This document shows, in pieces, positions 1 to 40,119 of a DNA stretch of 64,000 bases; the stretch's first letter is position 1; each line of letters opens with the position of its first letter. The stretch is from Eledone cirrhosa (Eukaryota), in assembly GCA_964016885.1 (NCBI GenBank), contig OZ024743.1, positions 253,952,001 through 254,016,000 of the forward strand, in the 5' to 3' direction. The position numbers and the translations under genes are program-made. The notes under the pieces are model-generated. The model searched no databases. It had not been told where the DNA came from and worked only from the letters and a program-made list of their open reading frames with translations.

Positions 1-522
1 TTATATAGATATGTTTTCCATTTTCTGTTCTTAGCCAATTTATATCACAATGAAGATAAATAAAAGATTGTTATGCTTCTGTGAATAAGTAGATTCACAC
101 TACTCAAAGAGGCATAAAATTAATGAATTCTTTAATTTAAAGAGCTTTCACATATAAAAACAGAAATGATTCATCTGTTTTTAAATTTGTTCATATACTT
201 AGCATATCTAACACGCACACTCTATCTGTATACAGAATACATACGTGTATATTCATATATATATATGGAAGGGTCAGGAGCCCGACGGCTGAGCTCTTGC
301 CGTTTCAACAACTAGATCCAGTCTCCTTTCATATTACCATAATCTACCATCCCCACTTTCGAGTACTCTGGTGGATATATTGTCTAATCAGGTATTTACT
401 GAATCCATTTTCACGTATATATGCATGCATATTTACACACACACATACACACACACACACACACACACACACATATATATATATATATATATATATATAT
501 ATATATATATATATATATATAT

Positions 523-842
523 ACAGTGTTCCCCCGGCATTCGCGGATATGGTTATTCTCGGAATATTCCGTAGAACCTAGCTAATAATTGTTCGTGGAA
601 ACAGCAGCATGTTCGCGGAACCGTAAATATCTTCCGCTATATTTTAATGGCTTTTTTCGGGGCAATATATATTTATTTAACACTAAATTACTAATAACAA
701 TATAACTTATTTACCGGCCTTTTGGACACCACTTCGCCATTTGTTATATTTTGTTATATTTTGACGTTTATAGTCATTTTTATGGACACGTCCAATAGTT
801 GCGGTTTTTTCACTCTTCACGTGTGCTCTAGGAACGTAACCT
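523..842. mobile_element. Tc1/mariner (pogo/Tigger-like) non-autonomous element, truncated at one end
   Basis: Starts TA|CAGTGTTCCCCCGGCATTCGCGG, a Tigger-like terminus. The other end (ggtttttcactcttcacgtgtgctctaggaacgtaacc) is the reverse complement of the subterminal part of the MITE at 29223. Confidence 0.55.
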
Positions 843-1124
843 GCAGGCTACAATTGTATATATATAGAGAGAGAGATAGTGCCAAGTATTGGGAGGGTCT
901 ACATAGACCAAGTCAGTGGCGCTACTGACTTCCCAGAGCGGCAGAGGCGTGGTCTGCATCCCACTTACGGTCTTACTTTCCATCAAGTGCACAAGAGCGG
1001 TTGCCATGTCTGTGATACAATGAAGGGTCCTTACAACCCTTTTTTGGAAAGCTCTCTACGATCGGATGCCCTTCGTATCACCATTCACATTACAGAGTGT
1101 ACTGTATGTGTTTATCGTGTAGAT

Positions 1125-1311
1125 CAGGCACTAAAAACATGCGGCCCGCGGGACGCATGCGCGTCTTTACAAGCACACTTGCGGCCCCACAAAGGTTTTT
1201 ACAGCGCGAGCATGTTTTATCTTCGTAATATGAAATATAATGTATTAGTTGTAATAACAACACATATGGGACCCATATGGCTCTCGGGCTACACTCAGTT
1301 AGACAAGACTC
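1125..1311. mobile_element. hAT (Charlie-like) MITE with 8-bp TSD
   Basis: Starts CAGG..aacatgcggcccgcgggacgcatgcg; ends tggctctcgggctacactcagttagacaagactc. Flanked by identical gtgtagat at 1117-1124 and 1312-1319, resembling the NTCTAGAN hAT target. Confidence 0.75.
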
Positions 1312-2489
1312 GTGTAGATAACCAACACTAGAAAGGCCGATGCACGGTGAAATGACTGAATAGTCTTCTAAGCTTTTTTTAGAATACGCATGGTTTCTAG
1401 ACTGGTGTGCTGTTACTGTTGCGAAACACCATATAAGGTGTACCAAGCTGATCCTTGTCCCTGTGGAAAAACATCGTCCCTTCTGGGCGTATATTTTGGT
1501 GAGGGGTGATAGCATGGAGTTACGTGTGAATTTATGGAATCTGTGGTGTTATTTGACAGGGTTAGGATTAGGGTGGTGAGAACACTGTCTCAAGTGGAAG
1601 GCATCGATGGTTTGGTCAGTAGCGGTACATAGTGATATATATATATATATATATATATATATATATATACACAGACGCACACACACACACACACACTCAT
1701 ATATATGTATGTATGTATGGAGCCTGCGGAGCTGAGAGCGGAGAAATAAATAATCATAGGAGTACTCAATGCATGGGGAGATGCAGAGTTGGTATAGAGT
1801 TATTTTGCATCTCTGTCACTCTCTCTTTCTCTCTTTCTCTCTCAATATACATACATACACATACACACTCACACACATACACACACACACACACATACTC
1901 ACACACACACACACACACACACACACACACACACACACACTCACACACACACACACACATATATATATATATTCATTTTACCTTTTTATCACAGGGTCAT
2001 CACTTGTCTGATGCCCCTTATCCTTTATAAGATTAATATTAAAATTATACTTCTGTATTGAGTACTTTTTTCTCTAATCCATCAGCCACGAAGATACATA
2101 CACACAAACACAAATACACGTACACGCATAAATAGACATACATGCACACACACACACACACACATATATATATATATATATATACACACGCATATAATTC
2201 ATACATTCATATACATAATTTATTTTCCACATAATTTAGTAGATAGATTCATTTTTACCAAAATATCAAAATTATTTCATCGTTCAACAATTCTGATCAT
2301 TAATCCTACAATAAATCTTCCGTAGCCTACAGACATCTTGGCAGTTGTTTTAATTAGCAGACGTATTAGAAAGCATTCCAATCCACCACCATATTTGGTT
2401 CGTATCCAATATATAATCACCAAGATGCAGTTCCCCACCTGTGATTCCTCATTACAAATTAGCTATTAAAAGTTTCTAAATATATATCT

Positions 2490-2740
2490 TCATCATCATC
2501 ATCATCATCACCGTTTAACGTCCATTTTTTCACGTTAGTATGCGTTAGACGCGTTGTCATGTTGTGAGTAATGCCAGGTCAGATGACAATGTCTTGCTCA
2601 TACAGAACTGATTTTGGCTTCGGTTCTACAGCTGGATGGCCTTCTTTGCAGCAACCTTACTTACAGTGAGTAATTGGTGCTTTTTGTCTTGACACCTACA
2701 CGACCACTTTACAACGTGGAATAGGCATTTTTTCCGTATG
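2490..2740 (-). mobile_element. SINE-like repeat with V-domain-like core and RTE-type (GAT)n tail, degenerate
   Basis: Reverse complement resembles the aggaagggcatccagctgtagaaa core and gcatggaa..acgttaaa(tga)n tail of 62112-62511. Other decayed copies near 4700-5000, 9700-9915, 16420-16790, 23780-23910, 48460-48760, 49130-49720 and 52420-52560. Confidence 0.6.
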
Positions 2741-3055
2741 TATATACACACACACACACACACATATATATATATATATATATTTTAATTTTAATTATAT
2801 CTCATATAAAATAATACAACTGGCTTTCCACAAAATACATATAGTTAGCACCCCAAACACAAAATTGGGATTATACTAACGTATATCCCAATGTTTGTTG
2901 AGTGAGATAGTTACCAGTCAGTAGAAGGGGTATTTAATTTGTTGGAAGTCAGACAAATATAAATGTTTATAACTGATTTAGAGCACTCAACAGTTTACTG
3001 GAGTAAATATTCAATGATATTAAATAAATGGAAACTATATTTATAAAACCATATT

Positions 3056-3118
3056 TATTTTATTATATATATTTCAAGGGTACCAAGACACATTGGTACG
3101 CTTTCATCAGATAAAATA
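3056..3118 (-). ncRNA. Minimal type I hammerhead ribozyme, intact core
   Basis: Minus strand: tattttat-CTGATGA-aagcgtaccaa(tgtgtc)ttggtaccctt-GAAA-tatata-TA-ataaaata. 8-bp stem I, long stem II, palindromic loop III as in PLE minimal HHRs. Confidence 0.85.
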
Positions 3119-37650: not shown

Positions 37651-38663
37651 GGGATTGTATATATATATATATATATAGGTGTTTACTCAAACTCTAAACA
37701 CCCATACTCGAACTGTAAAACGTAGAATAGATTCTCAGTCCAATATATCAAAAGAATTATGTAATTCCTTTTGTTTTTACCAAGCTATTTGACGAAAAAT
37801 TGTCTGCCCAATTTACGTTAGGTAATTGCCAACAGACTTTCTGAAAATGTGCCTAACAGCAGTTTATTCAAAACAGAGCAGCCTCCTTTCATATTCATTT
37901 ATTCATGGCAGTACTACTGGGAGTCACTGTCAGTTCATGACAAACTCTACAGTTATAGACGTGCTGTCAGACAAGCCTGTTTAAGATACAGGAACTGTGA
38001 TAAAGCTATTCTGCACATACTTGTCCACTATCTGGCCGATACAGTTTGGCACCAGTGACGTCGCAACTCATTTCTACACCTAGGTAAACTGCGGCAACGC
38101 GAAATAAAGTGTCTTGCATATATATGTATATATATATATATATATATATATATATATATATATATATATATATATATATATATATATATATATATAGAGA
38201 GAGAGAGAGAGAGAGAGAGAGAGAGAGAGAGAGAGAGAGAGAGAGATACAGAACAGGGGGTTGTGTTGTTACGTGATAAAGTGTATTTAGAAATAAAAAG
38301 AAGGCACAAACAAGGGACAGGTCCCCTCTTCAGTTGTTTGCTGGAGGTCTCGGACATTTCAACGCATTACCTCCAGCTAGGGCGTCACAATAACTAAAAT
38401 AAGTTATTTCTTTCTATCTGTATCGTTATTATCAATATTATTTTTAATTTGATGGGATAGTTTGAATTCGTAATTTTGCCGGTTGTGCATATAACTGTAT
38501 TTTCGTTTTCTCTTTCGTTTTTCTCCCCCCCCCCCCCCACACACACACACTCCTTTCCATCTGTCCCACTTACTTTATTACTCTCTATATCTTTATTATT
38601 ATTATTGATGTGGTAATTTGAATTTATAAATTTACCGTTACGAATATATTTTGTATTTCCTCT

Positions 38664-38773
38664 TAGTTTTCTGACGAAATGATGGTAGTTGCATGTATTT
38701 TAAATTGAGTGCCACTGCCTTCAGTGTTTAGCAATTTCTAGACATCTCTATCATAGAAACAATTGTTAGACTG
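38664..38773 (+). ncRNA. Hammerhead motif with long stem II insertion
   Basis: tagtttt-CTGACGA-aatgatgg(~60 nt)ctatcata-GAAA-caattg-TT-agactg. Palindromic loop III; stem I pairs with one bulge. Confidence 0.6.
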
Positions 38774-39144
38774 TAAATAAATTTCCTTGTTTGTACTGTT
38801 GACCATGCTATTCTTCACTTTTTCAATGTTATCACTCCAAGAAATACTTACATAGGAATACAAGTGAAGTCATTAACTTGCCATCAACGTAAACCTCTTG
38901 TTGAGTCACACAACGCCGTACGCTTAAACTATCCATGATAAGTAGTTTTCACAACCTCTTATCGGATTACCTTTAACGATATATTGTTATCCTATATATA
39001 TATAAATATATATATATATATATATATATATATATATATATATATATATATATATATATATATATATATATATATATATATATGTATATATATATAGTGA
39101 CGAAACATAAGTCAATTGCATGAACTCATAATCCTTTATTTACA

Positions 39145-39201
39145 AACTATATATATATTTCGATGATAGCCATTGAATGGCTATGACCTCATCAGGCAGT
39201 T
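39145..39201 (-). ncRNA. Hammerhead motif, core intact, stem I imperfect
   Basis: Minus strand: aactgc-CTGATGA-ggtcatagccatt(c)aatggctatcatc-GAAA-tatata-TA-tagtt. Confidence 0.65.
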
Positions 39202-39305
39202 AGTCAGTTCTTAGATGCCAGCTCTGTGTTTATAGTGTTGATGGTATCAGAGCCTTGGGACATATGTATATATATATATATATATATATATATATATATA
39301 TATAT

Positions 39306-39443
39306 AACGAAGAAAGTGTGGTAAGGAGCCAGGTGGGCCATAAGGGGTCCTGACTCTTTTCTTATTACCTACTCTACTACCCTAAGTATCGAGTACTGAG
39401 GTGCGTTATGGACCACCTTGCTCCTTACCACACTTTCTTCGTT
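39306..39443. mobile_element. 138-bp fold-back with 38-bp inverted ends, between (TA)n tracts
   Basis: aacgaagaaagtgtggtaaggagccaggtgggccataa / ttatggaccaccttgctccttaccacactttcttcgtt. Same family as 12905-12990 and 22040-22120. Confidence 0.8.
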
Positions 39444-40119
39444 ATATATATATATATGTATATAGGAAAATGTTCAAAACCCCGACGGCAGAGCTCAAGC
39501 CGTTTCGGCGATATATATAAAGATATATATATATATACACATATATATATATATATATATATATACATATACATACACACATTCACACACATACACATAC
39601 GCCCCCCTCCCCCCATATATATATATATATATATTCATTGCAAACTTTCCAATATAAATTTGTTAATTCATTAACGAGTATATATTGTTTAATGAATTAT
39701 CTCATCTAGACATTTTTATTTTTGTATTTATAATATCACGCCTCATACCAGAAAAAAAACATCAAAGGCGTCCATTTTTTAATTTCAAATTTGTGCAGAA
39801 AAACCAACATAAACCACAAAGTAATTTAAGACAACAAAAACACTAACAAAATATTTCTTTTCATCTATCATATATATCGTTATCTCACTGGAATAAATAG
39901 ATCGTTACATATAAATAATTCATAAGTCACTTAAAACTGTCCTCCATTGGGAAAGGGGTGAGGGGTTTTGGGAAATTATTGTATTATTTTTCTATTGTAT
40001 TATTTGTAAATATTGTATCATCATCATCACCATCATAATCATATTCCTCAATGCCAGTATTACCCTTATTTTAGGATGGATCCAGCTATTAGCTGAGTAC
40101 ATCGTGAAGATTTAACTTT

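What the first reader, a model, noticed from the sequence alone, without database searches (positions are those of the whole stretch)
268..39510. Field of ~19 hammerhead motifs from several families, mostly in short fold-back inserts between (TA)n tracts
Seen: HHR cores or remnants at 3056, 4171, ~5040, 7190, 7301, 7663, 10444, 17380, 17606, 20592, 25464, ~29080, 30697, 30897, 34124, ~36170, 38308, 38664 and 39145. Stems are unrelated, but loop III is repeatedly palindromic (tatata, gtac, catatg, tgca, caattg, cg). About ten fold-backs occur, with arms from 17 to ~450 bp. Inference: (TA)n tracts act as a self-renewing landing pad for several PLE lineages and their non-coding ribozyme-bearing derivatives, so much of the apparently unique sequence between microsatellites is ribozyme-terminated insertions.
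Basis: partly seen in the sequence, partly recalled or inferred. Interest (0 to 1): 0.75.

Follow-up and report, generated by a model that had tools for sequence, protein, structure and literature searches.

The report
Penelope retroelement ends carrying hammerhead ribozymes
These predicted self-cutting RNA motifs are the broken-off tail ends of about a dozen jumping-gene families, most of them Penelope-type, that end in TA repeats throughout this animal genome, and their mirror-image pairs likely form when both cut DNA ends copy the element's RNA separately.

Summary
The motifs are real. All 19 sites belong to multi-copy hammerhead-bearing repeat families, and 7 well-formed motifs in 1-40 kb compare with 0-1 per shuffle. 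But only 4 of 19 are intact and only 7 lie in fold-backs. The 'field' is not local: arbitrary tiles hold 9.8 per 100 kb, about 290,000 genome-wide. Eight of 13 families link to coding Penelope-like elements (six Hydra-type, two Neptune-like), so most inserts are 5'-truncated element ends, not non-coding derivatives; one family looks like a retrozyme. 3' ends abut (TA)n in 298 of 400 copies (5' ends 20; background 3.8%). Ribozymes in pLTRs, palindromic helix III, inverted copies, one-sided tails and TA targeting are all published. Less ordinary: 81 of 82 classifiable fold-backs pair one tailed with one tail-less arm, and either arm can reach further 5', which favours independent priming from both DNA ends. 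The window's very abundant Hydra family has U4A fixed (17,572 versus 70 copies), so it probably spreads with a weak ribozyme. Cleavage is untested. The scan noted all of this before on other DNA of this genome.

The parts
2920..4277 (.). Family A fold-back: minus arm of about 230 bp with tail (intact hammerhead 3064-3110), plus arm of about 1.1 kb of AT-rich 3' UTR without tail (mutated motif 4179-4225). Hydra-type element.
   Evidence: ORF link in L252 and L263
5034..5221 (-). Family N2 degenerate fold-back: 3' core box and helix III only (about 5038-5069); relatives have a canonical core. A further remnant at 269-321.
5235..5395 (+).
7076..7494 (.). Family B fold-back, 184-bp arms, two intact hammerheads (7196-7224 minus, 7306-7334 plus); tail on the plus arm only. 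Neptune-like element.
7612..7811 (-). Family F single tail-less end; core boxes intact (7667-7732), helix I damaged. Hydra-type link in 1 of 3 long loci.
10268..10745 (-). Family E, 1.4 units of a 347-nt repeat, motif 10450-10481 with G12A; retrozyme-like, no ORF link
12906..14541 (.). Family N fold-back, arms about 450 bp; long-stem hammerheads 13003-13088 minus and 14439-14524 plus, both with A at position 8; tail on the minus arm only. Hydra-type element.
17089..17540 (+). Family C truncated 3' end with tail; motif 17385-17425 with family-fixed U4A
17564..17670 (-). Family A tail-less end with mutated motif 17614-17658, sharing the TA tract 17541-17563 with family C
17668..20974 (-). Family C Hydra-type element: upstream pLTR 20474-20839 (U4A motif 20597-20637), frameshifted RT plus GIY-YIG ORF 20441 to about 18300, 3' UTR cut at 17668; short inverted piece 20841-20974
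21975..22123 (.). N-group fold-back of 3' halves only, tail on the plus arm; 39307-39510 holds further N-group ends
25367..25575 (.). Family D fold-back, 70-bp arms joined inside helix I; intact motif 25469-25498 minus, C3A motif 25505-25534 plus; tail on the minus arm only. Hydra-type element.
28554..29202 (+). Family L, decayed minimal motif about 29083-29110; tentative Naiad-type link
29877..30813 (+). Family G 3' UTR end; minimal motif 30699-30726 with intact boxes and a 2-bp helix I. Neptune-like ORF in 2 of 6 long loci.
30849..31020 (-). Family H tail-less end; motif about 30902-30950, boxes intact, helix III mutated; shares tract 30814-30847 with family G; no ORF link found
31085..34284 (+). 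Family C near-complete element: 36-bp inverted arm, frameshifted ORF 31140-33250, 3' UTR and pLTR with tail; motif 34129-34169 (U4A plus G5C)
36013..36211 (-). Family M 3' end; only the 3' core box and helix III remain (about 36173-36186). Hydra-type link in 3 of 9 loci.
38251..38369 (-). Family J: core boxes in reversed order (3' box near 38360, 5' box at 38333); the cleavage-site strand is lost in this copy
38600..38990 (+). Family K: boxes intact (38671-38767) around an 85-nt helix II region; helix I damaged here, 7 bp in one homologue
39097..39266 (-). Family I: boxes intact (about 39149-39195), helix I damaged; shares tract 38993-39096 with family K

Best explanation
The motifs are hammerhead-shaped sequences in the 3' repeats (pLTRs) of many Penelope-like retrotransposon families whose copies end in (TA)n across the whole genome, and the fold-backs are likely made when the element's endonuclease cuts a TA tract and both DNA ends prime reverse transcription on the element RNA. 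Shown: family membership, ORF links for 8 of 13 families, 3' TA adjacency, two fixed 3' ends per family, one of each per fold-back, and genome-wide density. Inferred: one DNA end primes at the RNA's full 3' end (tailed arm) and the other at a fixed internal site 35 to about 130 nt upstream (tail-less arm); both cDNAs stop early, often in or near the folded ribozyme, and are joined head-to-head through short self-complementary matches. Inferred: self-cleavage is weak or not needed to define inserted copies, since family C multiplied with U4A and family D shows no clear 5'-end peak at its cleavage site.
For: Shuffle controls. ORF links: C 9 of 19 loci at 86% identity or more to the window ORF, D 8 of 19, N 5 of 19, M 3 of 9, B 4 of 24; A in L252 and L263, F 1 of 3, G 2 of 6 long loci. 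3' TA 298 of 400, 5' TA 20 of 400, background 654 of 17,353; in arbitrary tiles alone C 12 of 17 and N 11 of 16. Two end classes: B 193/223, C 169/255, D 77/141, N 102/179, F 182/304 or more, H 159/240 or more. Of 104 divergent pairs 81 were long+short, 1 long+long, 0 short+short, 22 unclassified. In directly joined pairs of B, C and D the tail-less arm reaches more than 20 nt further 5' in 13, the tailed arm in 6, and 40 are within 20 nt; the window has both cases (A and C), so neither arm is simply a copy of the other. 17 of 20 inspected loci are fold-backs joined at the same 7-nt near-palindrome in the family C core. Published framework: Craig 2021, Cervera and de la Pena 2014.
Against: No biochemical or RNA data. 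Unequal arms could also come from later deletions inside unstable palindromes. Four pairs were long+long or short+short. Most loci were top-scoring or pattern-selected hits, not a random sample, and a few insertions may be counted twice. Five families (E, H, I, J, K) have no ORF link; links for A, F and G rest on 1-2 loci each, and L is tentative. Clade names rest on motifs, not on a tree. Family D junctions at the cleavage site are about 1.7-fold above one control position, a small excess that does not exclude some cleaved templates.
Confidence: 0.68

Rival explanations
1. Same elements, but fold-backs arise by one priming event followed by a U-turn: the reverse transcriptase copies its own new cDNA and the endonuclease or a bound protein stops it at a fixed point short of the tail.
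For: Explains one tailed plus one tail-less arm (81 of 82) and the 40 of 59 near-symmetric junctions. Craig 2021 attributes the tail to endonuclease-mediated resolution of the intermediate.
Against: In 13 of 19 unequal pairs the tail-less arm holds 5' sequence missing from the tailed arm; window family A has a 1.1-kb tail-less arm against a 230-bp tailed arm.
Confidence: 0.17
2. One reading: most short inserts are independent non-coding ribozyme elements (retrozymes) that are cut out by their hammerheads and mobilised in trans, and TA tracts renew themselves as landing pads.
For: Family E has a terminal direct repeat with period 302-349 nt in 6 of 12 loci; a 310-bp tandem array lies about 30 kb upstream; five families lack an ORF link; six window tracts are shared by two families.
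Against: Eight families continue 5' into coding elements; copy boundaries do not sit at cleavage sites; only 20 of 67 TA tracts touched an assigned end in a crude count; tile-level correlation of tracts and motifs is modest (rho 0.34).
Confidence: 0.12
3. Chance matches in AT-rich, microsatellite-rich DNA, or assembly artefacts that make palindromes.
For: 15 of 19 sites are imperfect; no Rfam hammerhead model reached threshold.
Against: Shuffles give 0-1; every site has homologues with the same layout; arms differ by 1-10% and have family-specific unequal ends.
Confidence: 0.02

Closest known systems
Hydra clade of C-terminal-endonuclease Penelope-like elements, including Hydra-1_Obim (Craig et al. 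2021, PMC8557442; passages, section 11, supplement part 2 and search hits seen)
   Same: Single RT plus GIY-YIG ORF, DKT and CxCX5C motifs, (TA)n preference, hammerhead near the 3' end with a U-U first pair in helix II, inverted 5' copy, tail on one end.
   Different: All 26 Hydra-clade rows of their motif table have U at position 4, whereas family C has A4 fixed and subfamily N has A8. Tails here are 35 to about 130 nt, not 30-40. The paper says the tail is often at one end only; here it is 81 of 82 pairs. At least six Hydra-type families, against one listed for that octopus.
[quoted passage not shown]
   Same: Palindromic helix III for dimer formation, many unrelated families per genome, mostly single truncated copies, pairs 100-700 bp apart on opposite strands, unpaired base at the start of helix II and 2-bp helix I (family G).
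   Different: Counts there are 2,000-9,000 per genome; the estimate here is 180,000-420,000.
Metazoan non-LTR retrozymes (Cervera and de la Pena 2020, PMC7229834, passages; Li, Clavereau and Pollet 2026, 10.64898/2026.07.22.740005, part 1 of 5)
   Same: Family E: about 347-nt unit, type I hammerhead, no ORF. Proposed PLE origin.
   Different: Only family E fits, mostly as 1.1-1.4 units; the other families are ends of coding elements. The axolotl count of 126,247 motifs is below the estimate here.
Neptune-clade PLEs (Craig 2021 introduction; motif details partly recalled)
   Same: Families B and G: RT followed by a CxxC linker and GIY-YIG endonuclease; microsatellite bias.
   Different: Assignment by motifs only; Nematis not excluded for G.

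Membership tests
Type I hammerhead ribozyme | Two conserved core boxes, three helices, cleavage triplet in type I order | tested here: met
   4 of 19 window copies intact; usual forms of families A, B, D, E, F, H, I, K and N2 fit
Type I hammerhead ribozyme | U at core position 4 and C3-G8 pair (families C, N, M) | tested here: not met
   C: A4 17,572, U4 70, C4 42 exact copies. N subfamily: A8 134, G8 0. M: C4 in most copies seen
Type I hammerhead ribozyme | Match to an Rfam hammerhead model at gathering score | tested here: not met
   none in 10 family loci; none in the 150 of 179 rows shown for the window
Type I hammerhead ribozyme | Self-cleavage | not testable with these tools
   needs an in vitro assay
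Hydra-clade PLE (family C) | Single ORF, RT with C-terminal GIY-YIG endonuclease | tested here: met
   ORF pieces 31140-33250 and 20441-18300; no Pfam hit
Hydra-clade PLE (family C) | DKT motif, CxCX5C linker, CxxC and CxH around the endonuclease E and N | tested here: met
   read by eye against section 11; RWR in place of RWK
Hydra-clade PLE (family C) | Insertion into (TA)n | tested here: met
   56 of 72 3' ends
Hydra-clade PLE (family C) | Canonical hammerhead at the 3' end | tested here: not met
   fold present, U4A fixed
Hydra-clade PLE (family C) | Placement in the Hydra clade on an RT tree | not tested
   no tree built
PLE insertion structure | 5' truncation, inverted 5' copy, tail on one end | tested here: met
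Non-LTR retrozyme (family E) | 150-450 nt non-coding unit with type I hammerhead in tandem | tested here: inconclusive
   terminal repeat with period 302-349 nt in 6 of 12 loci, but no locus with two full units seen
Non-LTR retrozyme (family E) | Linear and circular unit-length RNA | not testable with these tools
   no RNA search was made for family E
Type-SGC (reordered) hammerhead (family J) | Cleavage strand, 3' box and 5' box in that order, with helices I and III restored | tested here: inconclusive
   order and 4-5 bp helices I and III read by eye in 3 of 7 homologues; helix II partner not found; defining paper not read

The most novel reading that the evidence does not exclude
Penelope-like elements integrate by priming reverse transcription from both ends of a cut (TA)n tract at two fixed, family-specific RNA positions, which would explain the long-unexplained inverted copy and one-sided tail; and ribozyme cleavage is dispensable for this, because one of the most abundant families in a genome holding about 300,000 hammerheads (more than any count in the papers seen here) spread with a fixed U4A core while keeping the fold.
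Probability: 0.4. Interest if true: 0.65.

Novelty: new member of a known kind. Interest (0 to 1): 0.42.

Why it matters
Craig et al. 2021 list three open points for Penelope-like elements: how inverted copies and tails form, why they favour microsatellites, and whether the hammerhead has a function or is a passenger. This genome offers thousands of young insertions from many families with a strict long-arm/short-arm rule, and a natural pair of canonical and U4A families, so these points become directly testable. The window itself is an average piece of that genome.

Tried and rejected
Local field: rejected by 45 arbitrary tiles and 14 neighbouring tiles. Splicing that would restore the family C core: all 20 inspected of 26 copies with a canonical 5' box behind foreign sequence were junction or truncation by-products, and the real acceptor lies about 100 nt upstream. 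A canonical sister subfamily of C: the relaxed pattern gave 815 hits, but 17 of 20 inspected were fold-back junction by-products and 3 were truncated singles. A-to-I editing rescuing position 8 in family N: no genomic copy with G8 among exact matches (0 versus 134); RNA-level editing is not excluded. 5' ends at the cleavage site: family D about 62 junctions (11 of 30 inspected, of 170 hits) versus about 36 (8 of 20, of 91) at a control site 3 nt upstream, so no strong peak; no peak in family C. RNA evidence: no RNA holder listed for the family C 3' region; laying four contig sets added nothing on expression. Pfam found no family for the PLE ORFs. Long loci gave no ORF link for H (0 of 3) or J (0 of 4). 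My first strict descriptor missed motifs with a U-U first pair in helix II and was replaced. A final automated listing of motif coordinates was not obtained, so several coordinates were counted by hand and may be off by 1-3 nt.
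Full report
Setting. The window is G000:C4:253,952,001-254,016,000 in a 3.0-Gb assembly. It is probably a cephalopod; this is an inference from the resemblance by eye of the window's protein to Hydra-1_Obim and from earlier notes, not a test. Tandem Repeats Finder lists 103 rows, mostly short microsatellites.

Checking the observation. I wrote a type I hammerhead descriptor (two core boxes, three helices, cleavage triplet, mismatch penalties). It finds 4 perfect-core motifs with palindromic helix III, against none in 12 shuffles. 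With a fixed cut-off it finds 7 motifs in 1-40,000 against 0-1 in each of 30 shuffles, and none in 40,001-64,000. I then searched the genome with 11 of the families and found homologues of I and K among fetched loci. Every one of the 19 sites belongs to a multi-copy family with a hammerhead layout. Four are intact, five have intact boxes with a damaged or very short helix, seven carry core substitutions, two are halves, and one has its boxes in reversed order. About 11-12 fold-backs are present, but only 7 of the 19 sites lie in one and 4 in one shorter than 500 bp. Rfam shows no hammerhead in the rows displayed.

Is the field local? No. Forty-five arbitrary 10-kb tiles (46 asked, one did not exist) hold 44 motifs, 42 with a perfect core, against 1-2 per shuffle. 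That is 9.8 per 100 kb (bootstrap 6-14), or about 290,000 (180,000-420,000) genome-wide, not counting family C. Seven hits in 40 kb is reached by 17% of random four-tile draws, and 140 kb of flanking DNA has 19. For comparison, Cervera and de la Pena 2014 give 2,000-9,000 minimal motifs per genome and the 2020 paper gives 126,247 for axolotl. Searches pairing hammerhead with octopus returned only Craig 2021 as relevant; the library lacks most subscription papers.

What the families are. Family C is the 3' repeat of the two frameshifted RT plus GIY-YIG elements in the window, which show the DKT, CxCX5C, CxxC and CxH motifs that define the Hydra clade. D, N and M continue into Hydra-type ORFs in 8 of 19, 5 of 19 and 3 of 9 loci, and B into a Neptune-like ORF in 4 of 24. 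Longer loci link A (L252, L263) and F (1 of 3) to Hydra-type ORFs and G (2 of 6) to a Neptune-like ORF; H (0 of 3) and J (0 of 4) stay unlinked. L has an inverted Naiad-like piece in 2 of 7 loci, one of which supplied the probe. E shows a terminal direct repeat of 302-349 nt in 6 of 12 loci, as a retrozyme would. So most short inserts are 5'-truncated ends of coding elements. Hand-assigned insertions cover about 40% of the non-microsatellite sequence of 268-39,510, most of it in four long insertions.

TA targeting. Across ten families 298 of 400 alignments end within 6 nt of a TA run, against 20 of 400 at the 5' end and 3.8% of random positions. The references for B, F and H stop short of the TA run on the tailed end, which lowers these counts. 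In tiles, 36 of 44 motifs have a TA tract within 250 nt downstream, against 22% of random positions. Six window tracts carry ends of two unrelated families (7535, 10240, 14542, 17541, 30814, 38993; read). Whether insertions create new target could not be tested.

How the fold-backs form. Seven families show two fixed 3' ends, 35 to about 130 nt apart. Of 104 divergent pairs, 81 join a tailed and a tail-less arm, one has two tails, none has two short ends, and 22 could not be classed. Craig 2021 already describes an inverted 5' copy and a 30-40 bp tail often on one end only, and calls the mechanism open. A U-turn on the first cDNA predicts that the tail-less arm is nested inside the tailed arm. 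In directly joined pairs of B, C and D the tail-less arm reaches more than 20 nt further 5' in 13 cases, the tailed arm in 6, and 40 are near-symmetric; 4 pairs broke the long-short rule (these loci are enriched for junctions by how they were chosen). The window shows both cases. This favours independent priming from both ends of the cut, a reading I took from earlier notes and tested here. Later deletion inside palindromes remains possible. Junctions cluster at short self-complementary spots, for example inside the family C core.

Is the ribozyme needed? Families with unrelated stems keep the core, which implies long-term selection (inference). Yet family C, the commonest of those probed in tiles (22 hits in 590 kb), has A at position 4 in 17,572 exact copies, against 70 with U and 42 with C, so U4 is near the background of later mutation. 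A subfamily of N has A8 in 134 exact copies and G8 in none, while its sister N2 is canonical. M mostly has C4. Mutational scanning of another hammerhead found low activity for changes in this box other than the 3-8 swap (PMC9901934, passages); Perreault 2011 lists tolerated natural variants including U4C and U3-A8, and U4A did not appear in the passages and section read. All 26 Hydra-clade rows in Craig's table have U4. Family D has no strong 5'-end peak at its cleavage site. I therefore think cleavage is weak or dispensable for insertion, but it is untested, and earlier notes report older sister families that kept A4, which would point to a retained shape.

Papers seen: PMC8557442 (passages, section 11, supplement part 2 and search hits); PMC4209133 (parts 1-2 of 4); PMC7229834 (passages); 10.64898/2026.07.22.740005 (part 1 of 5; supplements closed); PMC3088659 (passages, section 8); PMC9901934 (passages); PMC10085705 not read, known only from earlier notes. 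A search for Penelope with retrotransposition and twin priming listed three papers, none on PLE mechanism by title or abstract.

Verdict. A real but ordinary stretch of a genome saturated with a known kind of element. Its value lies in the scale, the strict two-end rule and the fixed core variant, all of which the scan had noted before on other DNA. Interest 0.42.

Noticed in passing
window 6165-6570 and 14570-14778 (minus strand; boxes at 6183 and 14642): A further multi-copy family has the 3' core box upstream of the 5' box, like family J; it resembles the reordered hammerheads of earlier notes. Helices not worked out.
   Followed up: partly
L190:9916 to L191:1920 (about 30 kb upstream of the window); also L176: A 310-bp hammerhead tandem array arranged as two back-to-back arms of four units each; retrozyme-like.
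   Followed up: no
L030:750-1497; L034: Family C has a 748-nt intron-like segment with canonical donor and acceptor in its 3' UTR, ending about 100 nt upstream of the ribozyme; L034 looks like a precisely spliced genomic copy.
   Followed up: partly
family B loci L002-L024; window 7265: About nine fold-back junctions sit within a few bases of an acceptor-like site 40 nt upstream of the ribozyme, suggesting a fixed 5' end of the template RNA.
   Followed up: no
N-group loci; window 21975-22059, 5034-5170: Many N-group fold-backs are joined inside the long helix II of the ribozyme, so both arms lack the 5' core box.
   Followed up: partly
window 10076-10239 and 10861-11116: Two more TA-ended families with the same long and short ends (copies up to 99-100% identical for the first); no ribozyme in the part present.
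   Followed up: partly
family D loci L300-L349: Copies vary strongly at position 7, loop II, loop I and position 17 while keeping the core, as expected under selection on the ribozyme; not quantified.
   Followed up: no
window 7818-8851, 40074-41789, 62861-63532: Fragments of non-LTR (LINE) retrotransposons; Pfam RVT_1 hit at 7958-8506.
   Followed up: no
window 37089-37621 (minus): A decayed Neptune-like RT and endonuclease fragment.
   Followed up: no
window 35636-35857, 42206-44222, 49882-50065, 55600-56861: Many copies of a very abundant short interspersed repeat of about 180 bp.
   Followed up: no
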